From positions 38,441 through 102,440 of the forward strand of contig JANPIH010000119.1 in NCBI GenBank assembly GCA_031424895.1: a DNA stretch of 64,000 nucleotides. The letters run 5' to 3'. The translations under genes were made by a program, and so were the position numbers. Positions 4,040 to 32,550 of the stretch are shown here, piece by piece. Positions within the stretch are counted from its first letter, which is position 1. Each line of letters opens with the position of its first letter. The notes under the pieces are model-generated. The model had not been told where the DNA came from. It did not search any database and saw only the letters and a list, made by a program, of their open reading frames with translations. This DNA is from Rhodospirillales bacterium (GTDB lineage: Bacteria > Pseudomonadota > Alphaproteobacteria > Acetobacterales > Acetobacteraceae).

Positions 4040-4963
4040 TTACTTCAACACTCTCCGCAGCCACGCGCAGGCTTCGCGCATGGCTTCGGTCGCGGCGTCC
4101 ACTTGGCCGGCCCAGAACAGGAAGCCGTGGTTCATGCCTTCCCAGCGCGACAGTTCGGTTGGCACGTGGGCTTCCAGCAGACGTTCGGCATAGCGCACGC
4201 CTTCGTCGCGCAGCGGGTCGTATTCGGCCACCTGGATCAGCGCGGGCGGCAGGGTGGACAGGTTGGCGGCAACCAGCGGGGCGGCGTGCGGGTTGGTCGC
4301 GGCCGATGCGTCGGCGTAGTGGGCCCAGAACCATTCCATGGTGGCGCGGGTCAGGCCGTAGCCGTTGGCGTTCTCGGCGTAGGACGGCATGTCGGCCGAG
4401 CAGTGCGCCGTTGCCGGATAGATCAGCAACTGGCCTGCCAGCCTGGGGCCGCCCTCGTCGCGGATGCGCAGCGCGGTGACGGCGGCGAGGTTGCCGCCCG
4501 CGCTGTCCCCCGCCACCACGATGCGCGCGGGATCGCCGCCGAGTTCGCCGGCATGCGCCGCGACCCAGCGCGTGGCGGCCAGGCAGTCGTCGGGGGCGGC
4601 GGGGAAGCGGTGTTCGGGGGCGAGGCGGTAGTCCACCGACACCACCAGCACGCCCGCGCCGCCGCACAGGTTGCGGCACATGCCGTCATGGGTGTCCAGG
4701 CTGCACAGCACGAAGCCGCTGCCGTGGAAGAACACGACGACCGGGAACGGTCCGGTGCCTTCCGGCGTGTAGATGCGCAGCTTCAGCGCCCCGCCCGGCC
4801 CGTCGATCGCGCGTTCGGCGACATGGGCGATCGGGGCTGCGGGCGGCAGCACTTTGACCAGCGCCTCGTAGCGGGCGCGGGCCACGGGCACCGGCAGGGT
4901 GTGGGTGCCGGGCAGGTGCGCGGCGCGGTCGAGAATGGCCTGGATCTGCGGGTCGATGGGCAT
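4040..4963 (-). CDS. alpha/beta-hydrolase esterase/lipase (hormone-sensitive-lipase-like family)
   Basis: Starts MPIDPQIQAILDRAAH... after GGAGGCAGCC. HGSGF oxyanion motif and GDSAGG nucleophile elbow. Confidence 0.85.
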   Translation of the reverse strand: MPIDPQIQAILDRAAHLPGTHTLPVPVARARYEALVKVLPPAAPIAHVAERAIDGPGGALKLRIYTPEGTGPFPVVVFFHGSGFVLCSLDTHDGMCRNLCGGAGVLVVSVDYRLAPEHRFPAAPDDCLAATRWVAAHAGELGGDPARIVVAGDSAGGNLAAVTALRIRDEGGPRLAGQLLIYPATAHCSADMPSYAENANGYGLTRATMEWFWAHYADASAATNPHAAPLVAANLSTLPPALIQVAEYDPLRDEGVRYAERLLEAHVPTELSRWEGMNHGFLFWAGQVDAATEAMREACAWLRRVLK

Positions 4964-6087: not shown

Positions 6088-6888
6088 ATGACCGACAACT
6101 TCGTTGCCATCGAGCGCGGCCTCGGCCCCAATGGCCGCATTGCGCTGGTGCGCTTCGACCGCGGCATTCGCGCCAACCCGCTCTCCACCGAGGCGATGCG
6201 CCAACTCCGCCGCGCCGCCGAGAGCTTCGAGGACGACATGGAAACCTCCGTCGTCATCCTTACCGGCAACGGCCACGCCTTCAGCGCCGGCGCCGACCTC
6301 AAGGACGCCCGCCCCGCCGGCCAATCGATTGCCGAGCGCATCCACCGCCAGCGCAACGGCCCCAAGATGTGCGCCGCCTGGGAACGCATGGAACAGGTGA
6401 CGATCGCCGCCATCGAGGGCTTCGCCATCGGCGGCGGCGCGGCGCTGGCCGTCTCGCTCGACTTCCGCTTCTGCGGCCGCTCCGCCCATTTCCGCATCCC
6501 GGAAGTGGAGCTGGGCATGAACATGTCCTGGGGCTCCATCCCGCGCATGATCGCCCTGATGGGCCCCGCCCGCACCAAGCAAGCCGTCATCCTGGCCAGC
6601 GACCGCATCCCCGCCGAGGACGCGCTGGCCTGGGGCCTGGTGGAGAACGTCGTGGACGACGGCCAGGCGCTCGACGCCGCCATGGCATTCGCCGGCCGCA
6701 TCGCCGAACAACCGCCGCTGCCGGTGCGCATGAGCAAAACCACCGTCAACCGGATCGCCTTCGCGCTGTCCGAATCGATCAGCCATATGGACCCGGATCA
6801 GAACGTGCTGTCGTCGCTCACCGAGGACTACGCGGAGGGGACGGCGGCGTTTCGGGAGAAGAGGAAGCCTAGATTCAAGGGGAGGTAA
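6088..6888 (+). CDS. enoyl-CoA hydratase/isomerase (crotonase) family protein
   Basis: 266 aa with the GNGHAFSAGADLKD crotonase motif. Shine-Dalgarno GGAGCAAGGA precedes the ATG. Confidence 0.85.
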   Translation: MTDNFVAIERGLGPNGRIALVRFDRGIRANPLSTEAMRQLRRAAESFEDDMETSVVILTGNGHAFSAGADLKDARPAGQSIAERIHRQRNGPKMCAAWERMEQVTIAAIEGFAIGGGAALAVSLDFRFCGRSAHFRIPEVELGMNMSWGSIPRMIALMGPARTKQAVILASDRIPAEDALAWGLVENVVDDGQALDAAMAFAGRIAEQPPLPVRMSKTTVNRIAFALSESISHMDPDQNVLSSLTEDYAEGTAAFREKRKPRFKGR

Positions 6889-7018
6889 GCACGTTCTTTT
6901 TTGAAAAAAAGAACCAAAAAACTTTTCCCACTTTGCACCGCGTTCAAACAATCGACTCCGATGCAAAGTGATAAATTGTCTTTTTGCTTCTTTTTCTTCA
7001 GAAAAAGAAGACTCTTTC
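6889..7018. repeat. Family A AT-rich nested-palindrome element, copy A1 (arms H1+H2)
   Basis: H1 GTTCTTTTTTGAAAAAAAGAAC at 6893-6914. H2 CTTCTTTTTCTTCAGAAAAAGAAG at 6987-7010. Central stem CACTTTGCA/TGCAAAGTG. It fills the whole gap between two convergent stop codons (6886-6888 and 7019-7021). Confidence 0.9.
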
Positions 7019-7555
7019 TTACGTCCCTGCCTCCAGCAAAAGCAGCAACCCTTCCAGCACCTCCTCCGGCGGTGGCGGGCAGCCGCGCACCACGAAGTCC
7101 ACCGGCAGCGTGGTGTCCACGCCGCCGGCCACGGCGTAGCTGCCTTTGAACACGCCGCCGTCGATGGCGCAGTCGCCGATGGCGATCACGAACTTGGGGT
7201 CCGGCGCCGCCTCCCACGCCGCCAGCAGCGGCGCTTGCAGTGCGCGCGTTACCGGCCCGGTCACCAGCAGCACTTCCGCCTGGCGCGGGCTGTCGACGAA
7301 GCGCAGGCCGAAGCGGGCGAGGTCGTAGACCACGCTGTCCAGCATCCGCAGCTCCAGCTCGCAGCCGCCGCAGCTGCCGGGGTTGAGGGCGTGCAGCGAC
7401 AGCCCGCGGCCCAGCCGGCGGATGCCGGCCGCCTCCAGCCGCGCCGCGAGGTCCCGGGCAGCTTCGGTGTCCACCGGGGCCAGCGGCCGCGCCGCCGGGC
7501 GGGCGCGCAGGTTGCGCCAGACCCGGCGCAGCGGCGAGGGCGCGTCGTCGGTCAC
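7019..7555 (-). CDS. NuoB/HycG-like small subunit of an Ehr/Hyf-like complex
   Basis: GTG start overlaps the upstream stop (GTGA at 7552-7555). All four cluster cysteines are retained: SCGGCE, GDCAIDGG, GCPPPPEE. Confidence 0.85.
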   Translation of the reverse strand: MTDDAPSPLRRVWRNLRARPAARPLAPVDTEAARDLAARLEAAGIRRLGRGLSLHALNPGSCGGCELELRMLDSVVYDLARFGLRFVDSPRQAEVLLVTGPVTRALQAPLLAAWEAAPDPKFVIAIGDCAIDGGVFKGSYAVAGGVDTTLPVDFVVRGCPPPPEEVLEGLLLLLEAGT

Positions 7556-9039
7556 TGATCCATCCCCGCGTGTGAAATGCCGAAGGAGGCGCGCAGCAAG
7601 GGCCAGTCCGCGAGGTCCGCGCCGCGGGCTGCACCTTCCAGCATCGGCAGGTGCAGCCAGCCGGGATCGCGCTGGAAGGCCTGGGCGATCTGCCCGCCCT
7701 CCAGGCGCAGCCAGGTCCAGATGCCGCCGCGCGGCCCCTCGGCCCAGCCGAAGCCCTCGCCGCTGACCATCGGCAGGGTGGCGACGATCTCGCCGGCCGG
7801 CAGCTCCGTCAGCGCGGTCCGGACCATGCGCGCCGAATCGCGCAACTCGGCCAGCCACACCAGCAGCCGCGCCGCCGCATCGCCGCCCACATCCCTTGGC
7901 GCATTCCTTGGTGCCTCGCGCACCGGCGCCACGTTGAGGTCGTGGTAGGGCCGATAGCCCGGACTGCGCCGCAGGTCCCCGGCCGCCCCGCAGGCCCGCC
8001 CGGACGGCCCGCCCGCCGAGAGCGCCATTGCCAGCTTGGGCGGCACCACGCCCAGGCCTTCCAGCCGGCGCAGCAGCGGGGCGCATAGCCGGCCCAGTTC
8101 GGCGAGGTCGCGCGCCACGGCGGCGGCGGCGGCGCGCATCGCCTCCACGCCCTCCGGCGCGATGTCGGTGGCCAGCCCGCCGGGCACCACCACGTCCATC
8201 ATCAGGCGGTGGCCGAACGCCCGCGTGCCGGCCCGCAGCAGCGCCTCCCGATGTGCCTGGCAGTGTGCTGCCACCAGCGGCGCGCCGGCGGCAGCGGCCA
8301 GGGCGGCGATGTCGGCCAGGTGCATCGCGATGCGCTCCGCCTCCGCACTCGCCGCGCGCAGGGCTAGCGCGCGCGGCGGCGGCAGCGTGTCGCTGGCGGC
8401 CTCGGCGGCGCGGGCGAAGGCGATGGCGTGCGCCACCGGCGCGTCCCCGGCCAGCCGGGCGGCGAAGCGGCTGGCGGCGCGGGGCGACTTGCCGCGCATC
8501 AGGGCCGGGATGCCCTTGTGCAGCCAGCCCAGCCGCGCCTGCACCCGCGCGATGCGTCCGCCGCGCACGAACAGACGGAACTGCCCGGCCTCGGCGATGC
8601 CGCCGGCCATAGGGCCAATCGGCACCTGGTCCATCCCTTCCACCGCGGCTTCCGGCGGCACCCCGGCGTGCGGCGGCGGGCGGGTGACGAGCGGGGTCGC
8701 GACCTCCCAGGCGCCATGGTCCAGCCAGGGCCGGTGGTCCAGCGCGCCGTCGGCCGCATGGCCCCACAGGTCGCGCAGTGCCCGCTCGAACAGGATTGCC
8801 CCGGGCCGCTGCGGCGACAGCGCCGGATAGCGCCCGTCGGCGACCGGGACCGAGACCGCCAGCATCCCCTCGGCATCGCGCCACAGCGCATGCACCGACA
8901 GTGCATCGCCCCACAGCGCCACGAGGGACAGCCCCGCCTCCGCCCCCAGCGCCGACCATTGCCCGGGCGAGACCGGGTGGCGCGGCCAGGGCCGGCACGG
9001 AAGGCCGCCCTGCGCGCGCAGGCTTGCCGCGAGGCCCAT
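7552..9039 (-). CDS. fused NuoC-NuoD/HycE-like large subunit lacking the NiFe-ligand cysteines
   Basis: Starts MGLAASLRAQ... NuoC-like segment FERALRDLWG. GPMAGGIAEAGQFRLF and GWLHKGIPALMRG match group-4 large-subunit motifs. The CxxC position reads ARLAGDAPVAHA, and the C-terminus is ...SFGISHAGMDQ with no Cys. Confidence 0.85.
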   Translation of the reverse strand: MGLAASLRAQGGLPCRPWPRHPVSPGQWSALGAEAGLSLVALWGDALSVHALWRDAEGMLAVSVPVADGRYPALSPQRPGAILFERALRDLWGHAADGALDHRPWLDHGAWEVATPLVTRPPPHAGVPPEAAVEGMDQVPIGPMAGGIAEAGQFRLFVRGGRIARVQARLGWLHKGIPALMRGKSPRAASRFAARLAGDAPVAHAIAFARAAEAASDTLPPPRALALRAASAEAERIAMHLADIAALAAAAGAPLVAAHCQAHREALLRAGTRAFGHRLMMDVVVPGGLATDIAPEGVEAMRAAAAAVARDLAELGRLCAPLLRRLEGLGVVPPKLAMALSAGGPSGRACGAAGDLRRSPGYRPYHDLNVAPVREAPRNAPRDVGGDAAARLLVWLAELRDSARMVRTALTELPAGEIVATLPMVSGEGFGWAEGPRGGIWTWLRLEGGQIAQAFQRDPGWLHLPMLEGAARGADLADWPLLRASFGISHAGMDQ

Positions 9040-10235
9040 CACAGCGCCGCCGCCAATAGGGCGAACCAGCGCGCCACACCCGGCACCACGCCTGCCGCCA
9101 CGCAAAGTGCCAGCACCAGCGCCGCGGGAATGTCCGCCAGCCCGGGTTTCCACGGCGCCTGCCACGCCGCCCATGCCGCGCGCGCCAGCCCGCCGGCCCC
9201 GGCCACCATCAGCCCTGCCAGCCCCAGCGCCAGCACCGCTGACACCTCAGCGGCCTCCACCAGCAGCGCCAGCCCTGCGCCGAACGCCGCGAACGGCGGC
9301 AGCAGCGCCAGCCCCGCCAGCGCCGCCGCGCGCACCCGCATGCTGCCCGCCATCGCCAGCGGACCCAGCAGCACCGACCCGCTCAGGAGCAGCAGCCCCG
9401 CCGCCATCGCCTCCGGCCCGCCCAGACCGAACCCGACTGTCGCCAGCCCCGTCCGGAACAACACCGCGTCCCTGGCCGGTTGCGCGCCATCGCGCCACAG
9501 CGACGCGGCGGCCCATCCGAGGCTGGCCAGCCCCAGCACCAGCAGCGCCGGCCCGGGCGCGACCATTTCGGGGTGTGCCATCGCGACCACTCGCCCGCGC
9601 AGCAGCACCAGCAGCGCCGCCGCCCCGAGCGCCGGCAATAGCATGTCGGCATGGCCGCGCCCGGCTACGCTCGCCCAGCCATGCAGCGGCGCCAACCCCG
9701 CCAGCGGCGCCAGCCCGGCGAGCAACAGGATCCAGCCGAGCGTCAGCACCCCGGGCGGCAGATCGGTCGCGGCCCCCAGCAGGAGGGCGCCGAACAACGC
9801 CAGTGCCAGCGCCGGCAGCACGGCGCGCAACGCCCGGCTTGTCGCAGCACCCCCGCCGGCACCCACCTGCAGCAGCGCCAGCACCGCGGCCTCCAGCCCG
9901 ACCCAGCCGAGCACCGGCGCATCGGCCAGCACGGCCAGTTGCAACCCGGCCAGCACGCCGAGCATCTGCCCCGCGCGAACGCCGGTCCAGGCACGCCCGA
10001 GCCATGCCCCCAGCAGCCCCGCCAGCGCGACCATGATGCCGATATGCGCCGCCAGCGCATCCACGCGCAGCCCCGCCACAGCACCCGGCCGCCATGGCAG
10101 CGTCGCGGCCAGCGCCAGCGTTACTCCCGCCGTGCCCAGCGCGCCCCATCGCACGAAATCGTCGCGCCGCACGAAGGACAGCGCCACGGCCCCCGCCGCC
10201 GGCACCGCGACCACCGCCCAGGCCAAGGCGCTCAC
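9039..10235 (-). CDS. NuoM/N- or HyfF-like antiporter-type membrane subunit (short form)
   Basis: GTG start overlaps the upstream stop (GTGA at 10232-10235). Strongly hydrophobic 398 aa. Its stop overlaps the large-subunit ATG by 1 nt (TGATG). Confidence 0.7.
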   Translation of the reverse strand: MSALAWAVVAVPAAGAVALSFVRRDDFVRWGALGTAGVTLALAATLPWRPGAVAGLRVDALAAHIGIMVALAGLLGAWLGRAWTGVRAGQMLGVLAGLQLAVLADAPVLGWVGLEAAVLALLQVGAGGGAATSRALRAVLPALALALFGALLLGAATDLPPGVLTLGWILLLAGLAPLAGLAPLHGWASVAGRGHADMLLPALGAAALLVLLRGRVVAMAHPEMVAPGPALLVLGLASLGWAAASLWRDGAQPARDAVLFRTGLATVGFGLGGPEAMAAGLLLLSGSVLLGPLAMAGSMRVRAAALAGLALLPPFAAFGAGLALLVEAAEVSAVLALGLAGLMVAGAGGLARAAWAAWQAPWKPGLADIPAALVLALCVAAGVVPGVARWFALLAAAL

Positions 10236-10849
10236 GACGTCTTTCCCGATGCTGTCGCGCGCGCTGTCATCAGGCGACGTATCGGCAGCACCATCGCCGC
10301 CGCCGGCAGCGCCAGCGTCGCCAGCGCGACCGCCGCCATGGCGGGGAACACCGGCACCGAGACCAGCGCCAGCACCAGCCCGTTCTCGATCATCAGCACG
10401 CCCGCCACCTGCCCGGCCGCGTCCCGCCGCAGCGCCGCCGCCAGCCAGCCCGCCAGCACCACCGCCGACGCCATTGCCAATCCGGGTCCCGCAACCGGCG
10501 CCACCACCACCAGCGCCAGCCCGGCCACCCCGACTCCGGCGGCAGCCAGCCCAACGGACAGGCCCGATCCATCTTCCTCCAGAACCGGCGCCAGGGCGCG
10601 CAACCCGCGCGGCAGCGCCACGGCCTTGACCGCAAGCGCCAGCGCCGCGACCGCCACGCCTTGCCAACTGCCTTGCAGCCAGGCCTGGGCGAGTGCGGCC
10701 AGCGCCAGGCACGCCGCCTGCGCCGCCACCAGCGCCCCGATCGGGCCGACGCGCCGCGCGATCAGCAGCGCCAGCGCCAGCACCAGCATCCCGGCCCCGG
10801 CAAGCGGCAGGGCGGCGCGCGCCGCCTCGTCGAGCCATACCGCGCTCAT
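10232..10849 (-). CDS. HyfE-like small membrane subunit
   Basis: Starts MSAVWLDEAARAALPLAGAGMLVLALALL... 205 aa, multi-TM. ATGA overlap with the upstream gene at 10846-10849. Confidence 0.65.
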   Translation of the reverse strand: MSAVWLDEAARAALPLAGAGMLVLALALLIARRVGPIGALVAAQAACLALAALAQAWLQGSWQGVAVAALALAVKAVALPRGLRALAPVLEEDGSGLSVGLAAAGVGVAGLALVVVAPVAGPGLAMASAVVLAGWLAAALRRDAAGQVAGVLMIENGLVLALVSVPVFPAMAAVALATLALPAAAMVLPIRRLMTARATASGKTS

Positions 10850-11772
10850 GCCGCCCCGCGCAGGGCTTGGCCGGCGAACAGCACGCCGACGCCGAGTGCT
10901 GCCAGCAGCGCCGCCAGCGCCATCAGGGCCGGCACCTGCCCCGCCCGTGGCGCCGGCACCAGGGTGCGCAGCAGCGCCACCGCCGCCGCCAGCAGAACCA
11001 TCTTGGCGCCCCAGACCGGCAGGAAGATCAGCCAGTCGCCGATCGTCGTCGCCGGGTCGTGGCGTGGCGGTGGCAGCCCGGGCGGCAGCACCAGGGCGGC
11101 CAGCAATGCAAGCCACACCAGCCGCCGCAGTGCCTCCGCCGCCGCATCCAGCGCGAGATGCCGGCCGGACAGCTCGCCCGGCGCACCGCCGCCATCCGCC
11201 GCCGCGACCAGCAGCAGCGCCAGGCCCAGCGGCAGCAGTGCGGGCAACAGGCCGGGCGCCTCGTCGAACGGCACCTCCAGCACGGCCGGCAAGGCGGTGT
11301 CCCCGGCCGCCAGCGCGAAGGCGAACACCACGCCCAGCAGCGCCGGTGCGGCCAGCGTGGCGCGCGACAGCATGGCGGCGGCGCCGTGGCCTGCGGCGGC
11401 GGTGCCGGAATCCATCGCCCCCAGCACCGCCAGCGCGAGTGCCAGCCCGAGAAGCCCCACGATCACCAGCAGGTCGGCGGCCGGCGCCAGCGCCATGTGC
11501 GGGGTGAAGCTCGGCACCAGCGCGGCCGCCACCGCCAGCACCGCCAGCCGTGCCGCCGGCACCGCCCGCGAGACCGCCGAGACACCTTCACCCATCACCG
11601 GCATCTGCCCCAGGGCGCGCGCCGCGTCCCGCCACGGTTGCAGCACGGAGGGGCCGGCGCGGCCCTGCATGCGGGCCTCGAACCACGCAACCACCCCGGC
11701 CAGCAGCGGTGCCGCGGCCAGCACCAGGGCCAAATGGAGGATCTGGGCGAGGCCGGGCAGCAGCGCGCTCAC
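10846..11772 (-). CDS. NuoH/HyfC(HycD)-like membrane subunit
   Basis: GTG start, VSALLPGLAQILHLALVLAAAPLLAGVVAWFEARMQGRAGPSVLQPWRD, colinear with the HycD N-terminus (..RRGPGVLQ.YRD). GTGA overlap at 11769-11772. Confidence 0.75.
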   Translation of the reverse strand: MSALLPGLAQILHLALVLAAAPLLAGVVAWFEARMQGRAGPSVLQPWRDAARALGQMPVMGEGVSAVSRAVPAARLAVLAVAAALVPSFTPHMALAPAADLLVIVGLLGLALALAVLGAMDSGTAAAGHGAAAMLSRATLAAPALLGVVFAFALAAGDTALPAVLEVPFDEAPGLLPALLPLGLALLLVAAADGGGAPGELSGRHLALDAAAEALRRLVWLALLAALVLPPGLPPPRHDPATTIGDWLIFLPVWGAKMVLLAAAVALLRTLVPAPRAGQVPALMALAALLAALGVGVLFAGQALRGAA

Positions 11773-13580
11773 CACAGCCCGGCTCCATGCAGCGCCAGCA
11801 TCACGACGAGCTTCAGCCCGAGCAGCAGGGGTGCGACGCGGGCTGCGAAGCCCCGGCCGGGCCACGCCGCAAGGCGCTTGAGTGGCCATGAAGGTAGCCG
11901 CAGCCGTGGCAGCCTGTGGCCCAGCGTTCGCGCAAAACCTGCCGCGCCCAACTGCGTCGCCGGGTCGCCGAACGGCAGCCAGGAGGGGGACGGCGACTGC
12001 CCGCCCTCCCACGCCGGGGCCACCCGATGCCCCGCCGGCGCCCGCGCCCGCACCCCCAGCGCCACCACCGCCCCGGCCAGCGCCACCAGCAGTGCCAGGC
12101 CCAGCGGCGCATAGCCCTGCACCGACAGCCAGCCGCCCGGTGCCGCCGCCCCGGCCAGCATCGCCACCGCCGGACCCGCCAGCGCCAGCACGATCCCCGG
12201 CACCAGCCCGCTCAGCGCCAGCACGGCGGAGAAGGCCAGCATCGCCCAGCGCCAGGCCGGCCCGACCTCCTCGGCCGCTGCAGCACGGGGGGAGCGTGGT
12301 CGGCCGAGGAAGGCCACGCCCAGCCCGCGCAGGACCGCGAAGCCCAGCAGCGCCGCCGCCAGCCCCGCCGCCGCGACCACCGCCAGCCCCAGCGCCCACC
12401 ATTCCGCCCCGCCGCCGCGCGGCAGGGTGGTGGCGGCGCGCACCAGCAGCCACAGCCCGGCGAACCCCGCGCCCGGCGGCAGCATCGCCACTGCGAGACA
12501 AGCCGCCGCGGCGGCGGCGAAGGTGAAGCGCATGCGGTGCACCAGCCCGCCCAGCCGCGCGAGCGCCTGCGAGCCGGCGCCGTGTTCCACCGCCCCCGCG
12601 GCCAGCGCGGCCAGCGCCTGCGCCCAGCCGAGCACGGCCATCAGGAACAGCGCCGCGCCCAGCGCCAGCGCCGCCGCCGGCCCGTCATCCACGCCGCGTG
12701 CCGCCACCGCCATGCCGAGGCCCAGCGCCACCAGCCCGCTGCGCGCCACCGCCACCCCGGCCATCGCGCCACGCATGTCCCGCGCCCGTGCCGCCGCAAG
12801 CCCGCCCAGCATCGCCGCCGATCCGCCTGCCATCAGCAGCGGCAGCGCCCAGCCCGGCGCCAGCGGCCCGGCGAGGTCCAGCATGCCGCGCGCCAGGAGA
12901 TACAGTCCCAGCGTCGCCAGCAGTGTGCCCGCCAGCCCGCCGCCCTGCGTGCGCAGTGCGTGCGGCCAGCGATGCAGCGGCGCCAGGGCCGCCAGCGCGC
13001 CGCCCGCCACCAGCACCAGCGCCGGTGCCATCCCCGCGCCGCCCGCCGCCACCTGGGCACGCACCGCGGCGAAGCCCGGATCACCCGCCGGCAAGGCCAG
13101 CCCGATCACCAGCGCCGGCACCGCCACCCCGGCAAGCCAGGCCGGCCGCATGCCCCCGATCGCCAGGCAGGACGCCGCAACACCCAGCGCCAGCATCCCC
13201 GCCTCGGCCGCCAGCACCGCCAGCACCAGGCTGCCCAGCAGCGCGAGCAGCCCCGGCCCGGCGCCGCGCGCCAGCCCCGCCATGCCCACCGGCAGCAGCA
13301 CGACAAGGAAGAACGAGGCCAACCCGTCCAGCGCCAGCACCGGCCGCACCCCGGCCACGGCGAACGGCAACGCCAGCCGCGCCGGCACCGCCCCCAGCAC
13401 CAGATGCGCCAGCGCCGCCACCGTCCCCGCCCCGGCAAGCGCAAGCCCCGCCGCGCGCAGCTTCATGCGCGGCACGAGCGCGGCCAGAAGGGCGAGCACC
13501 ATCAGCACCGCCCCCCCGGCCGCCAGGCCCGGCAACAGGGCGGCACTCACAAGGGCGGAACTGGCCGAGGCGGCGCTCAC
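11769..13580 (-). CDS. NuoL/HyfB-like antiporter-type membrane subunit
   Basis: ~603 aa polytopic protein and first gene of the cluster. The GTG start at 13580 was chosen in frame; the start is uncertain because the ORF is open up to 13742, inside repeat B3. Confidence 0.7.
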   Translation of the reverse strand: MSAASASSALVSAALLPGLAAGGAVLMVLALLAALVPRMKLRAAGLALAGAGTVAALAHLVLGAVPARLALPFAVAGVRPVLALDGLASFFLVVLLPVGMAGLARGAGPGLLALLGSLVLAVLAAEAGMLALGVAASCLAIGGMRPAWLAGVAVPALVIGLALPAGDPGFAAVRAQVAAGGAGMAPALVLVAGGALAALAPLHRWPHALRTQGGGLAGTLLATLGLYLLARGMLDLAGPLAPGWALPLLMAGGSAAMLGGLAAARARDMRGAMAGVAVARSGLVALGLGMAVAARGVDDGPAAALALGAALFLMAVLGWAQALAALAAGAVEHGAGSQALARLGGLVHRMRFTFAAAAAACLAVAMLPPGAGFAGLWLLVRAATTLPRGGGAEWWALGLAVVAAAGLAAALLGFAVLRGLGVAFLGRPRSPRAAAAEEVGPAWRWAMLAFSAVLALSGLVPGIVLALAGPAVAMLAGAAAPGGWLSVQGYAPLGLALLVALAGAVVALGVRARAPAGHRVAPAWEGGQSPSPSWLPFGDPATQLGAAGFARTLGHRLPRLRLPSWPLKRLAAWPGRGFAARVAPLLLGLKLVVMLALHGAGLW

Positions 13581-13683
13581 GGGCCACCTTGGAAGGAGGG
13601 TTCGAACGGCACACCCCGACCCTAGCCGAAGCGGCCCCTGCGCCGGAAGCCGCCCCGGAGGGTGATGCGCTGAAGGATCCAAG

Positions 13684-13835
13684 AAAGGGAAGGCTGGGCT
13701 CTGCCCAGACCCGCCAGGGGCCGAGCCCCTGGACCTCAACATATTCTAATTATTGGGGTTCCAAGGGCCGCCGGCCCTTGGTGGGTCATCCGTGGCGCGG
13801 CTTCGCGCCGCGACGGCAAAGCCCTGGCCTTGCCT
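13684..13835. repeat. Family B element, copy B3
   Basis: GGGAAGGCTGGGCTCTGCCCAGACCCGCCAGGGGCCGAGCCCCTGGACC ... AT-rich loop ... CCAAGGGCCGCCGGCCCTTGG ... CGCGACGGCAAAGCCCTGGCCTTGCC. Confidence 0.85.
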
Positions 13836-13926
13836 ATTTCTGCCCTTTTTTCGCGCCTATGCCTGGGTGACGCCGGGCCGCGCGCCCGCTAAAGGTCCGG
13901 GTTCGCGACGAATGAGGGACGAGGCG

Positions 13927-15354
13927 ATGGACGAACGGTTTCTGCTGGTGGTGTTCGACGGCCTGCGCCCCGACCTGGTGCGGCCCGACACCACCCCCAA
14001 CCTGATGCGCTTCGCCGCCATGGGCATCCGCTTCACGCGTGCCCGCTCCGTCTTTCCCAGCGAGACCCGCGTCTGCTCCGCCACCGTCACCACCGGCTGC
14101 CAGCCGCGCCGGCACGGGCTGGTCGCCAACCGGCTCGCCCATCCGAACGACGCCCATGTTGCCGGCCCGGCCGGGCGCACCGTCGATACAAGCCAGATGG
14201 CCAACCTGCTGGCCATGGAACAGGAGATGGGCGCGCCGCTGCTGGAGATGCCCGGCCTGGGCGCCCGCCTGGCCGCCGCCGGGCGCGACTTCGCGGTGCT
14301 GTCCAGCGGCAGCACCGGGCAGAGCCACGTGCTGAACCCCGACGCGGTTGCCCTGAACCAGCTGACGCTTTCGGTCCATGGCGCGCAGGCCTGCTCGCCC
14401 AAGGGGGCCGCGCTGCTCGCTACGCTCGACCCGCCGCCCGCCGATGGGGCCGGGCGCGCCGAGTGGATCGCCGAGGTGTTCCGCACCCGGTTCCTGCCCG
14501 ATCCGCCCGCCGCGACCCTGCTGTGGCTGTGCGAGCCGGACACCTCCGGCCACTACCAGGGGCTCGGCAGTGCCGCGAACCTCGCCGCCCTGAAGCGCGC
14601 CGACGCCGCCTTCGGCCGCATCCTGGATGATTGGCAGGCAGGGCCGATGAAGGAGCGGCTGCACATCATGGCCGCCTCCGACCACGGCCACGCCACCATT
14701 ACCGGCACCATCCAAGCCGCCCCGCTGTTCGCCGCAGAGCCTGCCTTCGCCCCTTGCCGCCTGATCCCCGGGGCCAGCGGCGGCGTGGTGGTGCCCGGCG
14801 GGGATGCCGCCCTGATCGCCGAGGTCGCCGCCTGGCTCATCCGCCAGGACTGGATCGGCCAGGTCTTTGCCGCCGACGGGGCCGACCTGCCCCCCGGCGT
14901 GCTGCCGCGCAGCGCCGTGCTGGTGGACCACATCCGCGCCGCCGAGGTGCTGTTCACCCTGCGCGCCGGCGCCGGGCCCGCCCCCTCCGGCCTGCCAGGC
15001 GTGACGCTCAACGACGGCGCGCTGCCGATCGGCGGCGGCACCCATGGCGGGCTGACGGCCGCCGAGATGTCGATCGTCATGATGATCGCCGGCCCCCGCG
15101 CCCGCGGCGGCGTGCTGAGCGAATGGCCGGCGGGCCTGGCCGACATCGCGCCGACGGTGCTCTCCCTGCTCGGCATCCCCGGCGGCGAGGCGATGGACGG
15201 GCGGGTGCTGGCCGAGGCGTTCGAGTCGCCGGGCATCCCTGTCGCCGCCCCGGCGCTGGAAACCTGGGAGCCCGCCGACGGCGCCTATGGCCAGCGCCTG
15301 GCCCGCACCCGCTTCGGCCGCCATACCTATATCGACTTCGGCGAGCGCCGGTAG
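13927..15354 (+). CDS. alkaline-phosphatase-superfamily nucleotide pyrophosphatase/phosphodiesterase-like protein
   Basis: Starts MDERFLLVVFDGLRPDLVRPDTTPNL... (FDGLRPD metal-site motif). An alternative ATG lies at 13912. Confidence 0.75.
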   Translation: MDERFLLVVFDGLRPDLVRPDTTPNLMRFAAMGIRFTRARSVFPSETRVCSATVTTGCQPRRHGLVANRLAHPNDAHVAGPAGRTVDTSQMANLLAMEQEMGAPLLEMPGLGARLAAAGRDFAVLSSGSTGQSHVLNPDAVALNQLTLSVHGAQACSPKGAALLATLDPPPADGAGRAEWIAEVFRTRFLPDPPAATLLWLCEPDTSGHYQGLGSAANLAALKRADAAFGRILDDWQAGPMKERLHIMAASDHGHATITGTIQAAPLFAAEPAFAPCRLIPGASGGVVVPGGDAALIAEVAAWLIRQDWIGQVFAADGADLPPGVLPRSAVLVDHIRAAEVLFTLRAGAGPAPSGLPGVTLNDGALPIGGGTHGGLTAAEMSIVMMIAGPRARGGVLSEWPAGLADIAPTVLSLLGIPGGEAMDGRVLAEAFESPGIPVAAPALETWEPADGAYGQRLARTRFGRHTYIDFGERR

Positions 15355-15404
15355 CCACCGACGACCGTGGGCATCCAGGCGGTGCGACCCCACGTAACAC
15401 CGCC

Positions 15405-16289
15405 ATGATGACCCTCCGCTCCCTCCGCCGTATCGGCGCGTGCTGGCTTCCCCTGCTCGGCCTGCTCGCCGCCATCCCCGGCTGCGCGCCGCTGGACCTG
15501 CTGAACCGCACCGTCGACCAGGAGGGCGGCCTGGCGATCCGCCGCGACATCGCCTATGGCCCGCATCCGCGCCAGGCGATGGATGTCTGGCGCCCGGCGG
15601 CGGCCGACACCGCGCTGCCGGTGGTGGTGTTCTTCTATGGCGGCTCCTGGCAGAGCGGCAGCCGCACCGAATATCCCTTCGTTGCCGCCGACCTTGCCCG
15701 GCGCGGCCATGTGGTGGTGGTGCCCGACTATCGCCTGCACCCCGAGGCGAGCTTCCCCGCCTTTCTGGAGGATGGCGCCGCCGCCGTCGCCGCTGCCCGC
15801 CGCCGCGCCGCGGAGTGGGGCGGCGATCCGCGCCGGCTGGTGCTGATGGGCCATTCCGCCGGCGCCCACATCGCCGCCATGCTGGCGCTGGACCCGCGCT
15901 GGCTCGCCGCCGCCGGGGACAGCAGCGACAGCGTTGCCGGGCTGGTGGGTCTTGCCGGGCCGTACGACTTCCTGCCGATCACCGGGCGCGGCGTGCGCGC
16001 CGTGTTCGCCCCCGCCGCCGACCTGCGGCAGACCCAGCCGATCACCTTCGCCAGCGCAGCCGCCCCGCCCGCCCTGCTGCTGCACGGCGGCGACGACACC
16101 ACCGTGCTGCCGCGCAACAGCCGCGCCCTGGCCGCGCGCATCACCGAGGCCGGCGGGCGGGCGGACCTGCGCATCTATGACGGCGTCGGCCATATCGGCA
16201 TCGTGCTCGGCTTCGCCCGCGCCTTCCGCGGCTGGTCTCCGGCGCTGGAGGACAGCGTGGGCTTCATCGCCACCCTTCCGGCGCGCTAG
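15405..16289 (+). CDS. alpha/beta-hydrolase lipoprotein (esterase-like)
   Basis: Starts MMTLRSLRRIGACWLPLLGLLAAIPGC (lipobox). Also has FFYGGSW and the GHSAG nucleophile elbow. Confidence 0.8.
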   Translation: MMTLRSLRRIGACWLPLLGLLAAIPGCAPLDLLNRTVDQEGGLAIRRDIAYGPHPRQAMDVWRPAAADTALPVVVFFYGGSWQSGSRTEYPFVAADLARRGHVVVVPDYRLHPEASFPAFLEDGAAAVAAARRRAAEWGGDPRRLVLMGHSAGAHIAAMLALDPRWLAAAGDSSDSVAGLVGLAGPYDFLPITGRGVRAVFAPAADLRQTQPITFASAAAPPALLLHGGDDTTVLPRNSRALAARITEAGGRADLRIYDGVGHIGIVLGFARAFRGWSPALEDSVGFIATLPAR

Positions 16290-16322
16290 AGTATCGGCTC
16301 GTCTTCCGGTGACCCCCCGCGC

Positions 16323-17351
16323 GTGAGCCCGCCCCCCACCTTGTTGCCCCCCACCCTGTTGCCCCCCACCCTGTTGACGGGCGCCACCGGCTTCGTCGGC
16401 TCGGCCGTGGCGCGCGCGCTACTGGCCCGCGGGCATCGGGTGCGCGCCCTGGTGCGGCCCGGCGGCGACCGGCGCAACCTCGCCGGGCTCGACCTGGAGC
16501 TGGTCGAGGGCGACCTGTCCGACCCCGCCTCGCTGGCCCGCGCCGTCGCCGGCTGCCGCTTCGTGCTGCATGTGGCGGCCGACTACCGCATCTGGGTGCC
16601 GGACCCGGCGGCAATGCTGCGCGCCAACGTGGACGGCACGGTGGCCCTGCTGCGCGCCGCCCATGCCGCCGGGGCGGAGCGCATCGTGCATTGCAGTTCG
16701 GTCGCCGCCCTGGGCCTGACGCAAGACGGCAGCGCCGCCGACGAGACCACGCCGGTTTCGGAGGACAGCGTCGTCGGCACCTACAAGAAGTCGAAATACC
16801 GCGCCGAGCAGGCGGTGCTGCGCCTGGTTCGCGAGGAGGGCGTTCCGGCCGTTATTGTCAACCCGGCCGCCCCGATCGGCCCGCGCGACATCAAGCCCAC
16901 CCCCACCGGCCGCATGATCGCCGACGCCGCCGCCGGGCGCATGCCGGCCTATATCGACACCGGCCTGTGCGTGGTGCACGTGGACGACGTCGCCGAGGGC
17001 CACCTGCTTGCCCTCGAACACGGCCGGATCGGCGAGCGCTATATCCTGGGCGCCGAAAATCTTTCGCTGTTCGACATCCTGCGGATGGTGGCCGAGGAAG
17101 CCGGCCGGCGGCCGCCTTCCATCCGCCTTCCCGCCCCCCTGCTCTGGCCGGTGGCGCTGGCCTGCGAGGGTTTGGCCCGCTTCGGCTTCGAGCCCCTGGT
17201 CACCCGCGATCATTTGCGCATGGCACGCAAGAAGATGTTCTTCTCGTCGGCCAAGGCCGCGCGGGAGCTTGGCTATGCCCCCCGTCCGGTGCGCGAGGCG
17301 ATCGCCGATGCCGTTGCCTGGTTCCGCGCCCATGGCAGGGTGCCGGCGTGA
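16323..17351 (+). CDS. hpnA: hopanoid-associated sugar epimerase (NAD-dependent epimerase/dehydratase)
   Basis: [28 protein letters not shown] Rossmann motif. Sits first in an hpn cluster. The true start could be any TTG/CTG within the 15-bp repeat. Confidence 0.85.
16332..16376 (+). repeat. 15-bp tandem repeat x3 (CCCCCCACC[TC]TGTTG) encoding PPTLL x3 at the 5' end of hpnA
   Basis: Three contiguous in-frame units read directly from the sequence. The last TTG is followed by the canonical [10 protein letters not shown]-terminus. Confidence 0.9.
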
Positions 17352-18457
17352 TCGCCGCCCTGGTGCTGCTGGCCTGGGCCTGGCTGCTCGCGTTGCACGG
17401 GCGGTTCTGGCAGTCCGGCCCTGCGCTCGCCCCCATGCGCCCCGCCTATGCCCCGCCGGTTGCCATCGTGGTGCCGGCCCGCGACGAGGCCGCCGTCATC
17501 GCGCGCAGCCTTTGTTCCCTGCTGGAGCAGGACTATCCCGGGCCATTGCACATCGTGCTGGTGGATGACGGCTCCGCGGACGGCACGGCCCGCATTGCCC
17601 GCGCACTCCCTGGCGCAGAACGGCTCACCATCATCCCCGGCCGTCCCCGCCCCGCCGGGTGGGTGGGGAAGCTCTGGGCGGTCCACCAGGGCGTCGCCGC
17701 CACCGACGAGCCCCTCGTCCTGCTGACCGACGCGGACATCGTGCACGACCCCGCCCACCTCGCCACCCTGGTCGCCCAGCAGGAGCGCACCGGCTGCGAC
17801 CTGGTCAGCGAGATGGTGCGGCTGAACACCGAGAGCCTGGCCGAGCGCGCGCTGATCCCCGCCTTCGTCTATTTCTTCCAGCTGCTCTACCCCTTCGCCC
17901 GCGTGAACGACCCACTGAATGCCACCGCCGCTGCAGCCGGTGGCACCGTGCTGGTCAGCCGCGCGGCGCTGGCCCGCATCGGCGGCATCCCCGCCATCGC
18001 CGACCGGCTGATCGACGATTGCGCGCTGGCGGCGAAGGTGAAGCAGGGCGGGCGTATCTGGCTCGGCCACAGCGACCTCGCCCGCTCCATCCGGCCCTAT
18101 CCCGGCGCCGGCAGCATTTGGGCCATGGTCGCCCGCTCGGCCTATGTTCAGCTGCGCCATTCGCCGATGCTGCTGTCGGGCACGCTGCTCGGCCTTGCCC
18201 TGGTGTTCCTTGCCCCGCCGGCCCTCGCCCTGTTCGCCGATGGCAACCAGCGCCTTGCCGGCCTGCTCGCCTGGGCCGCCATGGCCGCCAGCTTCCTGCC
18301 CACCCTGCGCCGCCATGGCCGCGCCCGGCGCTGGGCGCCGCTCCTGCCGCTCATCGCCTTGTTCTACATGGCTGCCACGCTGGGGGCTGCCTGGAGCCAC
18401 CATTTCGGCCGCGGCGTCGCCTGGAAGGGCCGCGCCTATGAGGCCGGTCGCGCATGA
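17348..18457 (+). CDS. hpnB: hopanoid-biosynthesis-associated glycosyltransferase (GT2)
   Basis: GTG start overlaps the hpnA stop (GTGA). Motifs VPARDE...[11 protein letters not shown] and TDADI. Membrane C-terminus. Confidence 0.85.
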
Positions 18458-20123: not shown

Positions 20124-20262
20124 AAGGAAAGCATGTTCTTTTTTGAAAAAAAGAACCAAAAAACTTTCGTCCCTTTGCACCGTGTCCGACCGGGAGCCGC
20201 GGTGCAAAGTGGAAAAAGTCTTTTTGCTTCTTTTTCTTCAGAAAAAGAAGATTCTTTCTTGC
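20124..20262. repeat. Family A element, copy A2 (H1+H2), between hpnD and hpnE
   Basis: H1 at 20135-20156 and H2 at 20227-20250. Central stem CTTTGCACCG/CGGTGCAAAG. Begins immediately after the hpnD TAG (20121-20123). Confidence 0.9.
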
Positions 20263-20269
20263 TGTTCCC

Positions 20270-21526: not shown

Positions 21527-21664
21527 GAAGGATCTTCTTTTTCTGAAGAAAAAGAAGCAAAAAGACTTTTGTTCATTTGCTCCGCGCGGGAGTGTTTCAC
21601 ACTGAGCAAATGAATAAAAGTTTTTTGGTTCTTTTTTTCAAAAAAGAACATGCTTTCTTCCTTC
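21527..21664. repeat. Family A element, copy A3 (H2+H1, inverted orientation), between hpnE and shc
   Basis: H2 (rc form CTTCTTTTTCTGAAGAAAAAGAAG) at 21534-21557. H1 (rc form) at 21628-21649. Central stem TTCATTTGCTC/GAGCAAATGAA. Begins right after the hpnE TAG (21524-21526). Confidence 0.9.
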
Positions 21665-21705
21665 CCCTTCCCTTCATCCCGCCATTGTCCTAATCACCAG
21701 CCATC

Positions 21706-32273: not shown

Positions 32274-32274
32274 C

Positions 32275-32544: not shown

Positions 32545-32550
32545 CGGTGG

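What the first reader, a model, noticed from the sequence alone, without database searches (positions are those of the whole stretch)
7019..13580. Six-gene Ehr/Hyf-like complex whose hydrogenase-type large subunit has lost all NiFe ligands
The gene order on the minus strand is NuoL/HyfB-like, NuoH/HyfC-like, HyfE-like, NuoN/HyfF-like, fused NuoC-NuoD/HycE-like, then NuoB/HycG-like. Every junction is a 1-4 nt start/stop overlap (GTGA, ATGA, GTGA, TGATG, GTGA).

The small subunit keeps its four 4Fe-4S cysteines (SCGGCE, GDCA, GCPP). The large subunit reads A-G-D-A where group-4 hydrogenases carry the N-terminal CxxC (..RFAARLAGDAPVAHA..). It ends ..SFGISHAGMDQ instead of the C-terminal DPCxxC. 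It has only four scattered Cys in total.

The cluster contains no HycF/NuoI-type ferredoxin subunit, no hyp or hycI maturation genes and no formate dehydrogenase. This fits what has been called energy-converting-hydrogenase-related (Ehr) complexes, whose substrate and function are unknown.
Basis: partly seen in the sequence, partly recalled or inferred. Interest (0 to 1): 0.6.

Follow-up and report, generated by a model that had tools for sequence, protein, structure and literature searches.

The report
Pump-dead, nickel-free Hyq/Ehr membrane complex
This is a six-gene operon for a small relative of respiratory complex I and membrane hydrogenases (the already described Hyq/Ehr type) that has no nickel-iron site. 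In this freshwater bacterium it has also lost nearly all the charged residues such machines use to move protons, so it is a derived copy of a known but unsolved complex.

Summary
Six translationally coupled genes lie on the minus strand at 13580..7019. They encode NuoL/HyfB-like, NuoH/HyfC-like, HyfE-like, NuoN/HyfF-like, fused NuoC-NuoD/HycE-like and NuoB/HycG-like proteins. All four [NiFe] cysteine positions of the large subunit are substituted. The small subunit keeps its four [4Fe-4S] cysteines.

The Ehr reading is supported, but the cluster can be named more exactly. It is a hyqBCEFGI operon, as published for Azorhizobium caulinodans in 2009 and 2012 as a cysteine-free "endo-hydrogenase". 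At least 581 species genomes hold a relative, and the order B-C-E-F-G-I appears in all 80 fetched loci wherever the contig reaches.

The window belongs to a derived Acetobacteraceae clade. This clade also lost the Hyq-specific Cys and His residues. It lost the lysine/glutamate/histidine axis of both antiporter-like subunits and about 18 residues of the HyqC coupling loop. The peripheral arm and the Fe-S ligands remain. dN/dS of 0.02-0.37, conserved 4-nt overlaps and lake metatranscriptome contigs argue that the operon is still used.

My best reading is a non-pumping, membrane-anchored single-cluster redox module, not a hydrogenase. Its substrate remains unknown.

The parts
11769..13580 (-). 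hyqB-like gene: NuoL/HyfB/MrpA-type antiporter-like subunit, 603 aa, GTG start
   Evidence: Hits are Pfam Proton_antipo_M and NCBIfam hydrogenase-4 subunit B. PDB hits are MrpA 7qru_A and HycC 7z0s_C. Residues conserved in canonical Hyq are replaced: TM7 Lys (K->L196), second Lys (K->T223), TM8 Glu (E->A279), the H/H/K triad (L313, L317, Q321) and TM12 Glu (E->L376). Only 9 of 23 conserved charged positions are kept.
10846..11772 (-). hyqC-like gene: NuoH/HycD/MbhM-type subunit, 308 aa
   Evidence: PDB hits are HycD 7z0s_D (2e-11) and MbhM 6cfw_M. The TM1 loop ARMQGRAGPSVLQPWRD is kept. The loop AENARIPVDNPATHLELTMVHEAMxLEYSGRH of canonical Hyq is shortened by about 18 residues, and 18 of 28 conserved charged positions are lost.
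10232..10849 (-). hyqE-like gene: HyfE-type small membrane subunit, 205 aa
   Evidence: The gene is placed by position and by alignment to the HyqE genes of 58 related loci. The ENGL glutamate is kept, and 7 of 11 conserved charged positions are lost. It has no Pfam or NCBIfam hit.
9039..10235 (-). hyqF-like gene: NuoN/M/HyfF-type antiporter-like subunit, 398 aa (canonical about 480 aa)
   Evidence: NCBIfam gives hydrogenase-4 subunit F at 4e-10. The AlphaFold model has pLDDT 92.8, and its best PDB matches are Nqo14, NuoN/M and MrpD with TM 0.81-0.86. Eighteen of 22 conserved charged positions are lost, including the TM7 Lys (GTK->LAP), PDAHAEGP, the H/H/K triad and the TM12 Glu.
7552..9042 (-). 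hyqG-like gene: fused NuoC-NuoD/HycE-type large subunit, 496 aa, without NiFe ligands
   Evidence: Best PDB hit is HycE 7z0s_E at 1e-26 over residues 63-487. The AlphaFold model has pLDDT 91.1, with TM 0.86 to HycE and 0.83 to E. coli NuoCD. Motif changes are CGxC -> AGDA and DPCxxC -> GISHAG. The Hyq-specific Cys and the three His of the beta1-beta2 region are also absent. Of the conserved charged positions, 45 of 55 are kept.
7019..7555 (-). hyqI-like gene: NuoB/HycG-type small subunit, 178 aa, with four Cys for one [4Fe-4S] cluster
   Evidence: Best PDB hits are HycG 7z0s_G (1.5e-35) and MbhJ. SCGGCE, GDCA and GCPP are conserved in every locus that holds the gene, including all derived clades. 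This gene has the lowest dN/dS of the operon, 0.02-0.21.
13581..13752 (.). Upstream intergenic region shared with the divergent phosphodiesterase gene; the promoter was not identified
Evidence: No sigma-70 consensus is found here, and no sigma-54 -24/-12 consensus is found anywhere in the window. There is no hyqR-like ORF.
6889..7018 (.). AT-rich palindromic repeat directly after the hyqI stop codon, with a terminator-like hairpin at 6987-7010
   Evidence: The repeat family is noted in the earlier findings e1-3041931 and e1-3041933.

Best explanation
The six genes are a hyqBCEFGI operon. This is the alphaproteobacterial form of the 'energy-converting-hydrogenase-related' (Ehr) complexes: an L-shaped, six-subunit core of the complex I / group-4 hydrogenase architecture.

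Shown:
- The large subunit cannot bind a NiFe centre by the canonical ligands.
- The small subunit keeps the four ligands of one [4Fe-4S] cluster.
- This copy descends in place from a canonical Hyq operon of Acetobacteraceae.
- Its lineage has replaced almost every ionisable residue that complex I, Mrp, MBH and canonical Hyq use for coupling and ion transfer. These are the TM7 and TM8 lysines, the TM11 His/His/Lys triad and the TM12 glutamate of both antiporter-like subunits, the acidic loop of the NuoH-like subunit, and the His-rich beta1-beta2 loop of the large subunit.
- The folds, the peripheral arm, the operon structure and purifying selection are retained.

Inferred:
- The complex no longer pumps ions and is not a hydrogenase.
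- The membrane arm now serves as a hydrophobic anchor and scaffold.
- What selection maintains is the HyqG-HyqI-HyqC junction with its single [4Fe-4S] cluster. It works as a non-electrogenic electron-transfer or redox-sensing module between a cytoplasmic partner and the membrane, possibly the quinone pool.
- The partner and the substrate are unknown.
For: Identity:
- HMM and PDB matches exist for five of the six subunits; HyqE is placed by position and by alignment to the related loci.
- The fold models match the solved structures: HyqG to HycE with TM 0.86, and HyqF to NuoN/M/MrpD with TM 0.81-0.86.
- The order B-C-E-F-G-I recurs in all 80 related loci wherever the contig extends.
- The Xanthobacter flavus homologue reproduces the Cys pattern published for A. 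caulinodans HyqG and HyqI (against PMC3357923).

Descent:
- In the HyqG tree the window plus L001-L005 form a 100/100 clade on a 0.55 stem, nested inside Acetobacteraceae Hyq.
- The same phosphodiesterase/hpnA/squalene-synthase neighbours flank canonical-type loci L006 and L012 (L010 shares the phosphodiesterase only).

Ligand and pump-residue loss. Conserved charged positions kept are 9/23 in HyqB, 10/28 in HyqC, 4/11 in HyqE and 4/22 in HyqF, against 45/55 in HyqG.

Still maintained:
- dN/dS for close pairs is 0.02-0.37 in all six genes.
- All five 4-nt overlaps are conserved in L001-L004, and four of five in L005.
- The four HyqI Cys are kept in every derived locus that holds the gene.
- Clade-specific motifs such as IAEAGQF, SFGLSHAGMDL and GLAPLHGW are conserved within the clade.
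- Contigs of three lake metatranscriptomes, 90-94% identical, cover parts of hyqI, G, F, E, C and B.
Against: - No biochemical or genetic datum exists for this clade, so the electron-transfer or sensing role is inference from what is conserved.
- Selection is relaxed. dN/dS is about 2-4 times that of canonical Hyq (0.02-0.16 in most pairs). For HyqB, E and F it is above the flanking genes.
- The operon is 8 GC points above the rest of the window, and the membrane subunits are 56-60% Ala+Gly+Leu. This is what drift under GC pressure would produce in a decaying gene set.
- In a 77% GC sequence, open frames persist by chance.
- Metatranscriptome contigs can contain DNA and come from relatives, not from this genome.
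- The complex-I quinone ligands (Nqo4 His38 and Tyr87 equivalents) are absent, so quinone as the acceptor is unsupported.
- A. caulinodans genetics attributes H2 turnover to a (canonical) Hyq complex (PMC2650096, PMC3357923).
Confidence: 0.55

Rival explanations
1. The operon is a relic on its way to loss. The ancestral Hyq function became dispensable in this freshwater Acetobacteraceae lineage. The genes are drifting under GC pressure and have no present function.
For: - dN/dS is 2-4 times higher than in canonical Hyq, and 0.6-0.7 for HyqB, E and F at larger distances.
- More than half of the family-conserved columns of the membrane subunits are lost.
- Operon GC is 0.772 against 0.694 for the rest of the window, and Ala+Gly+Leu reaches up to 60%.
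- HyqF is shortened by about 80 residues.
- Related long-branch lineages (L013/L059, L058/L077, the Rhodopila group) show similar loss of these residues.
Against: - Close-pair dN/dS is 0.02-0.37 in all six genes.
- There are no frameshifts or stops over 6.5 kb in six lineages that differ by up to 30-50% in protein sequence.
- All 4-nt start/stop overlaps are kept.
- The Fe-S cysteines are invariant.
- New clade-specific motifs are conserved.
- Transcript-derived contigs exist in lake samples.
- The high dN/dS at larger distance is inflated, because dS saturates at GC3 of about 0.9.
Confidence: 0.2
2. It is a working 'endo-hydrogenase' like the one claimed for A. caulinodans Hyq. It would oxidise or evolve H2 at an unconventional, cysteine-free site and couple this to the quinone pool.
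For: The operon is orthologous to hyqBCEFGI by tree and synteny. In A. caulinodans, hyq deletion changes diazotrophic growth and H2 evolution (PMC2650096, PMC3357923).
Against: - All four NiFe ligands are absent.
- The three Cys and the His-rich loop that canonical HyqG conserves are absent too.
- No hyp, hup or nif genes occur in the 64-kb window.
- There is no hyqR and no sigma-54 promoter consensus.
- The authors themselves call a NiFe site in HyqG 'uncertain, if not unlikely'.
- Later reviews regard Ehr as unlikely to be hydrogenases (PMC12342949).
Confidence: 0.05
3. It still translocates ions or transduces energy by a non-canonical route, for example through the retained TM5 acidic residues, the HyfE-type glutamate and water wires, or as a conformational coupler with another transporter.
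For: - The TM5 Glu of HyqB (LAAEAG) and of HyqF (GLEAAV) and the ENGL Glu of HyqE are retained.
- The antiporter-like fold is retained with high model confidence.
- All four membrane genes remain under purifying selection.
Against: Both lysines, the His/His/Lys triad and the TM12 acidic residue are gone in both antiporter-like subunits, and the NuoH-type acidic loop is deleted. In complex I and Mrp, by established mutagenesis (my knowledge, not tested here), single substitutions of these residues abolish pumping.
Confidence: 0.1

Closest known systems
Hyq 'endo-hydrogenase' (hyqRBCEFGI) of Azorhizobium caulinodans and other Alphaproteobacteria (Ng et al. 2009, PMC2650096; Sprecher et al. 2012, PMC3357923)
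   Same: - The six structural genes come in the same order.
- HyqG is a fused NuoC::NuoD of about 500 aa that lacks both CxxC motifs.
- HyqI has four Cys for one N2-like [4Fe-4S] cluster.
- There is no NuoI/HycF-type subunit.
- The window nests inside the alphaproteobacterial HyqG tree and shares its chromosomal position with canonical-type loci.
   Different: - There is no hyqR gene and no NifA/sigma-54 promoter signals.
- The S-G-D-S motif is A-G-D-A here.
- The three Cys reported as family-conserved (C258, C491, C497) are absent.
- The EPGHF loop and two further His are absent.
- The Lys/Glu/His axis of HyqB and HyqF and the HyqC loop are lost.
- HyqF is about 80 residues shorter.
- dN/dS is 2-4 times higher.
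Ehr complexes (Ech-/energy-converting-hydrogenase-related; Geobacter sulfurreducens EhrA-1/A-2/B/C/D/L/S GSU0739-45, Coppi 2005; Marreiros et al. 2013)
   Same: The subunit set is group-4-hydrogenase-like, with antiporter-like subunits and without the NiFe-binding cysteines. The function is unknown (PMC6349859, PMC12342949, PMC7894505).
   Different: Ehr is a broad, polyphyletic label. The Geobacter cluster has seven genes. I did not compare the window directly with it. Loss of the pump residues is not mentioned in the Ehr papers I could read.
E. coli formate hydrogenlyase / hydrogenase-4 (HycCDEG, HyfBCEFGI) and Pyrococcus MBH
   Same: These give the best sequence and structure matches for HyqG (HycE), HyqI (HycG, MbhJ), HyqC (HycD, MbhM) and HyqB (HycC). 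The small subunit has the hydrogenase-type CxxC spacing, not the complex-I CC motif.
   Different: The window has no NiFe ligands, no HycF/HyfH/MbhN ferredoxin subunit, no HycB/FdhF partners, no maturation genes nearby, and no pump residues.
Respiratory complex I (NuoA-N)
   Same: The architecture is homologous: NuoB, NuoCD, NuoH and NuoL/M/N-like subunits. HyqG reaches TM 0.83 to E. coli NuoCD.
   Different: The operon has no NuoE/F/G, NuoI, NuoA or NuoJ. The quinone ligands equivalent to Nqo4 His38 and Tyr87 are Ala and Gly. The proton-channel residues are absent.

Membership tests
[NiFe]-hydrogenase, group 4 | N-terminal RxCGxCxxxH motif (two Ni/Fe-ligating Cys) | tested here: not met
   RLAGDAPVAH aligns with HycE RVCGICGFAH and MbhL RMCGICSFSH. 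Both Cys are Ala.
[NiFe]-hydrogenase, group 4 | C-terminal DPCxxC motif | tested here: not met
   The protein ends ..SFGISHAGMDQ. The Cys positions are Ser and Gly.
[NiFe]-hydrogenase, group 4 | Small subunit with four Cys for the proximal [4Fe-4S] cluster | tested here: met
   SCGGCE, GDCA and GCPP align with the HycG and MbhJ ligands.
[NiFe]-hydrogenase, group 4 | hyp maturation genes and an endopeptidase in the genome | not testable with these tools
   None is present in the 64-kb window.
Ehr complexes | Group-4-hydrogenase-like large and small subunits with NuoH-like and antiporter-like subunits, and no NiFe cysteines | tested here: met
   The definition is as quoted in PMC6349859 and PMC12342949.
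Hyq (hyqBCEFGI) | Six structural genes in the order B-C-E-F-G-I, with HyqG a fused NuoC::NuoD of about 500 aa | tested here: met
   HyqG aligns to HycE 104-540, and its fold model matches HycE and NuoCD.
Hyq (hyqBCEFGI) | Common descent with the published Hyq operons | tested here: met
   The window is nested in Acetobacteraceae HyqG with 100/100 support. It has 42% identity to the X. flavus HyqG, which shows the Cys pattern published for A. caulinodans. It shares flanking genes with canonical loci. A. caulinodans itself was not among the fetched loci.
Hyq (hyqBCEFGI) | Three Cys reported as conserved in HyqG (A. caulinodans C258, C491, C497) | tested here: not met
   All three are absent in the window and its clade. 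They are also variable in some canonical loci (for example L060, L017, L042), so they do not define the wider family.
Hyq (hyqBCEFGI) | hyqR regulator gene and a NifA-box / sigma-54 promoter (nif regulon) | tested here: not met
   The 172-bp upstream region has no ORF. No TGGCAC-N5-TTGC occurs in the window. No nif genes occur in the window.
Complex I / Mrp-type ion-translocating membrane arm | TM7 and TM8 Lys, TM11 His/Lys and TM12 Lys/Glu in the antiporter-like subunits; acidic E-channel and TM5-6 loop in the NuoH-like subunit | tested here: not met
   These residues are present in canonical Hyq and replaced by Leu, Thr, Ala, Gly or Gln here. The loop is shortened by about 18 aa.
Respiratory complex I | N-module (NuoEFG), NuoI, and the quinone-site His/Tyr of NuoD | tested here: not met
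   No such genes lie in the operon or the window. The Nqo4 H38 and Y87 positions are Ala and Gly.

The most novel reading that the evidence does not exclude
The derived Acetobacteraceae clade is not decaying. It is a stable, repurposed state of a complex-I-type machine: the six-subunit scaffold is kept for its lone [4Fe-4S] cluster and the cavity at the HyqG/HyqI/HyqC junction. It would work as a non-electrogenic redox relay or membrane redox sensor, with the antiporter-like subunits reduced to inert anchors. That would make it a natural 'pump-dead' complex-I relative that still assembles and is selected for.
Probability: 0.3. Interest if true: 0.55.

Novelty: new variant of a known kind. Interest (0 to 1): 0.33.

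Why it matters
Ehr/Hyq complexes are widespread: relatives occur in at least 581 species genomes, and Ehr complexes are also reported in Nitrospira, ammonia-oxidising archaea, Geobacter and candidate phyla. Their function has been open since 2005-2013. This window adds nothing new about the family as such.

The useful point is comparative. One lineage kept all six subunits and the Fe-S cluster under purifying selection while discarding the whole charged coupling and pumping network. If that state is functional, it shows which part of the machine carries a pump-independent function. It also offers a natural control for structural and mutational work on coupling in complex I, MBH and FHL. If it is merely decay, it documents how such an operon erodes under GC pressure without losing its reading frames.

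Tried and rejected
- The first literature search on 'Ehr' returned only electronic-health-record papers.
- Pfam and NCBIfam gave nothing for hyqC and hyqE, and the PDB sequence search gave nothing for hyqF. Those assignments rest on PDB hits (hyqC), family alignments, and the fold model (hyqF).
- No sigma-70 or sigma-54 consensus promoter was found, so regulation is unknown.
- Functional linkage to the neighbouring hopanoid and phosphodiesterase genes was considered. I set it aside as conserved synteny within Acetobacteraceae, because other canonical loci have unrelated neighbours.
- A true [NiFe]-hydrogenase, a canonical complex I and an Mrp antiporter were each rejected on tested defining residues.
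- An assembly artefact was rejected. The source metagenome run holds 98% of the stretch's sampled words, in contigs with 0-6 mismatches each.
- Searching the scan's earlier findings by sequence returned nothing.

Full report
**Observation**

The region 7019-13580 carries six minus-strand genes whose starts and stops overlap by 1-4 nt. The junctions read GTGA, ATGA, GTGA, GTGATG and GTGA. The window is about 70-78% GC and all six frames are open for long stretches. Gene calls therefore rest on homology and on third-position GC of 0.88-0.93 in the called frames.

HMM, PDB and fold matches identify the products as follows.
- A NuoL/HyfB/MrpA-like antiporter subunit.
- A NuoH/HycD/MbhM-like subunit.
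- A HyfE-like small membrane protein, identified by position and family alignment.
- A NuoN/HyfF-like antiporter subunit. NCBIfam gives 4e-10. The AlphaFold model has pLDDT 92.8 and TM 0.81-0.86 to Nqo14, NuoN/M and MrpD.
- A fused NuoC-NuoD/HycE-like large subunit. The HycE hit 7z0s_E has E=1e-26. The model has pLDDT 91.1, TM 0.86 to HycE and 0.83 to E. coli NuoCD.
- A NuoB/HycG-like small subunit, with HycG at 1.5e-35.

**Ligands**

In the residue-level alignment to HycE and MbhL, RLAGDAPVAH lies opposite RVCGICGFAH and RMCGICSFSH. The C-terminus ..SFGISHAGMDQ lies opposite ..SLDPCYSCTDR. All four NiFe cysteines are therefore replaced.

The large subunit has four unrelated Cys. The small subunit has exactly four, in SCGGCE, GDCA and GCPP. 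They align with the [4Fe-4S] ligands of HycG and MbhJ and have the hydrogenase-type CxxC spacing.

The complex-I quinone ligands (Nqo4 His38 and Tyr87 positions) are Ala and Gly.

The operon ends at a convergent enoyl-CoA hydratase gene and begins next to a divergent phosphodiesterase gene. No NuoI/HycF, hyp, hycI, FDH, nif, hup or nuo gene was found among the about 36 other gene frames of the 64-kb window that I scanned against Pfam.

**What it is**

The literature shows this gene set is already described.
- Degli Esposti (PMC4758237) lists 'ehr' (Marreiros 2013) and 'hyq' (Sprecher 2012) as group-4-like complexes without canonical Ni-Fe ligands.
- Ng et al. 2009 (PMC2650096) describe the A. 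caulinodans hyqRBCEFGI operon.
- Sprecher et al. 2012 (PMC3357923) give the details. There are six structural proteins. HyqG is a 504-aa NuoC::NuoD fusion lacking both CxxC motifs but with three conserved Cys (258, 491, 497). HyqI has four Cys. They infer a role as an H2:quinone oxidoreductase and admit that a NiFe site is 'uncertain, if not unlikely'.

These are almost all Alphaproteobacteria. The six genes occur in the order B-C-E-F-G-I in all 80 fetched loci wherever the contig reaches. The Xanthobacter flavus homologue reproduces the published Cys pattern: HyqG is 500 aa with Cys 257, 487 and 493, and HyqI has four Cys. Xanthobacter is one of the genera named in the 2012 paper.

So the cluster is a hyq operon, which is one kind of Ehr complex. 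As of 2023-2025, reviews still call Ehr function unknown and a hydrogenase role unlikely. In Geobacter the Ehr proteins are made and respond to formate.

**What is special about this copy**

The window groups with five freshwater-lake Acetobacteraceae MAGs (L001-L005). They form a 100/100-supported clade on a long stem (0.55 substitutions per site), nested within Acetobacteraceae HyqG. The same phosphodiesterase, hpnA-like epimerase and squalene-synthase genes flank canonical-type loci L006 and L012 (L010 shares the phosphodiesterase only). The window's operon is therefore a positional orthologue that diverged in place, not a distant paralogue.

Canonical Hyq conserves a set of residues across families.
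- HyqG: the IIEPGHF loop with two further His, RLSGDSTVAH, and ..CNKSFNCSYSGVDL.
- HyqB: a TM7 Lys, a second Lys (AMTKVALY), IENIG, an H...H...K triad, and GFASEWL.
- HyqF: [29 protein letters not shown], LH...HSLTK, and F.SEFL.
- HyqC: AEPA and the loop AENARIPVDNPATHLELTMVHEAMxLEYSGRH.

The window's clade has replaced nearly all of these.
- HyqG: IAEAGQF, RLAGDAPVAH, ..RASFGISHAGMDQ.
- HyqB: LLATLGLY, VARSG, GFAGLWL.
- HyqF: LAPLAGLAPLHGW with a 4-residue deletion, FGAGLAL.
- HyqC: the loop is shortened by about 18 residues.

Counting positions where at least 90% of canonical sequences share a charged residue, the window keeps:

| Subunit | Conserved charged positions kept |
|---|---|
| HyqB | 9 of 23 |
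| HyqC | 10 of 28 |
| HyqE | 4 of 11 |
| HyqF | 4 of 22 |
| HyqG | 45 of 55 |
| HyqI | 6 of 11 |

All four HyqI Cys are kept. Sister long-branch lineages (L013/L059, L058/L077, L008/L025/L035, L031/L056 and the Rhodopila group) show similar losses and also keep the Fe-S ligands wherever the gene is held.

**Is it still used?**

For close pairs within the clade, dN/dS is as follows:

| Gene | dN/dS, close pairs in the clade |
|---|---|
| hyqB | 0.16-0.28 |
| hyqC | 0.10-0.18 |
| hyqE | 0.12-0.30 |
| hyqF | 0.27-0.37 |
| hyqG | 0.19-0.24 |
| hyqI | 0.02-0.21 |

Most canonical pairs give 0.02-0.16. The flanking genes give 0.03 (L003-L004) and 0.14-0.35 (more distant pairs). Selection is thus relaxed about 2-4-fold but is clearly purifying.

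Other evidence that the operon is maintained:
- All five 4-nt overlaps are conserved in L001-L004, and four of five in L005.
- Clade-specific motifs are conserved within the clade.
- Three lake-water metatranscriptome runs contain contigs 90-94% identical to parts of hyqI, G, F, E, C and B. This is weak evidence of transcription in close relatives, because DNA carry-over cannot be excluded.

Evidence against full constraint:
- The operon is 77.2% GC against 69.4% for the rest of the window.
- The membrane subunits are 56-60% Ala+Gly+Leu, against 38-52% in canonical Acetobacteraceae copies. This is as expected if only generic hydrophobic helices are required.

**Mechanism**

In complex I, MBH, FHL and Mrp, redox chemistry at the large-subunit site is thought to be relayed in steps. 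It passes through the beta1-beta2 loop and the NuoH-type TM5-6 loop into an acidic channel. It then runs along a Lys/His/Glu axis through the antiporter-like subunits. This is established knowledge of these families and was not tested here.

Every one of these elements is present in canonical Hyq and absent in this copy. I therefore infer that this complex neither makes nor consumes H2, and that it does not pump ions by the canonical mechanism.

What is conserved is the following:
- the peripheral arm fold;
- the invariant R195, H204, E233, E235, D282 and PGG framework of the large subunit;
- the HyqC TM1 loop that contacts it;
- the single [4Fe-4S] site.

The most economical reading is a membrane-anchored, non-electrogenic one-cluster redox module, acting as relay or sensor, with an unknown partner. 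I put this at about 0.55. The rivals are a decaying relic (0.2), a non-canonical ion or energy coupler (0.1) and a true endo-hydrogenase (0.05).

Regulation differs from A. caulinodans. There is no hyqR gene. In X. flavus a small XRE-type ORF sits in that position. No sigma-54 consensus is present.

**Novelty and limits**

The finding as written, an Ehr-type complex without NiFe ligands, is a correct observation of a known and common thing. Earlier notes of this scan report the same in over 50 genomes, and one reports a similarly 'degenerate' copy. I reached the Hyq identification and the residue loss from my own calls before reading those notes.

The pump-dead derived clade is not mentioned in the Hyq and Ehr papers I could read. 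I therefore class it as a new variant of a known kind, of modest interest.

Not done:
- HydDB classification, because no such tool was available;
- a direct comparison with the A. caulinodans and Geobacter sequences, which were not among the fetched data.

Noticed in passing
window 7019-13580 against the rest of the window; L001-L005: The operon is about 8 GC points richer than its surroundings (0.772 against 0.694), and 5-10 points richer in L001-L005. Its four membrane proteins are 56-60% Ala+Gly+Leu. This looks like compositional drift under GC pressure in weakly constrained genes.
   Followed up: partly
window 13750-23628; L003-L006, L010, L012, L031, L033, L038, L051, L056: A type-I phosphodiesterase gene divergent from hyqB, then an hpnA-like epimerase, squalene/phytoene synthases and squalene-hopene cyclase (a hopanoid cluster), lie next to hyq in many Acetobacteraceae. 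This holds for both canonical and derived types. It is probably inherited synteny, not a functional link.
   Followed up: partly
window 6767-7033 and 13442-13975: The AT-rich palindromic repeat after the hyqI stop and the GC-rich repeat upstream of hyqB show summed contig depths of hundreds to about 10,000 in lake metatranscriptome and metagenome runs. These are multi-copy repeat families shared by many related organisms, and the depth is not a measure of expression.
   Followed up: no
L050 (Xanthobacter flavus) 4510-4833 and 14194-16167: A 107-aa XRE-type HTH ORF lies directly upstream of hyqB and is probably the hyqR equivalent. A GAF / sigma-54-activator / HTH_8 protein (NifA-like architecture) lies 2 kb downstream of hyqI.
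   Followed up: partly
L001, L015, L019, L037 (record titles against the tree): Lake MAGs labelled 'Asaia bogorensis' and 'Bosea thiooxidans' carry HyqG sequences that sit among Roseomonas/Acetobacteraceae. A 'Candidatus Sulfotelmatobacter' (Acidobacteriota) MAG carries one nested among Rhodospirillaceae. The causes could be mislabelling, mis-binning or horizontal transfer.
   Followed up: no
L013/L059, L058/L077, L008/L025/L035, L031/L056, L018/L033/L038/L051: Several other long-branch Acetobacteraceae lineages (including Rhodopila MAGs) have also lost the HyqB TM7 Lys and TM12 Glu, the EPGHF loop and the C-terminal Cys, while keeping the HyqI Fe-S cysteines. Their hyqE and hyqF genes are too diverged to detect with the window's proteins. 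It is unresolved whether this was one loss at the base of the 19-member clade or several parallel losses.
   Followed up: partly
window 31812-33752: Molybdopterin cofactor genes (MoaE, MobB) lie about 18 kb from the operon. No molybdoenzyme such as formate dehydrogenase was found among the window's frames that I scanned.
   Followed up: no
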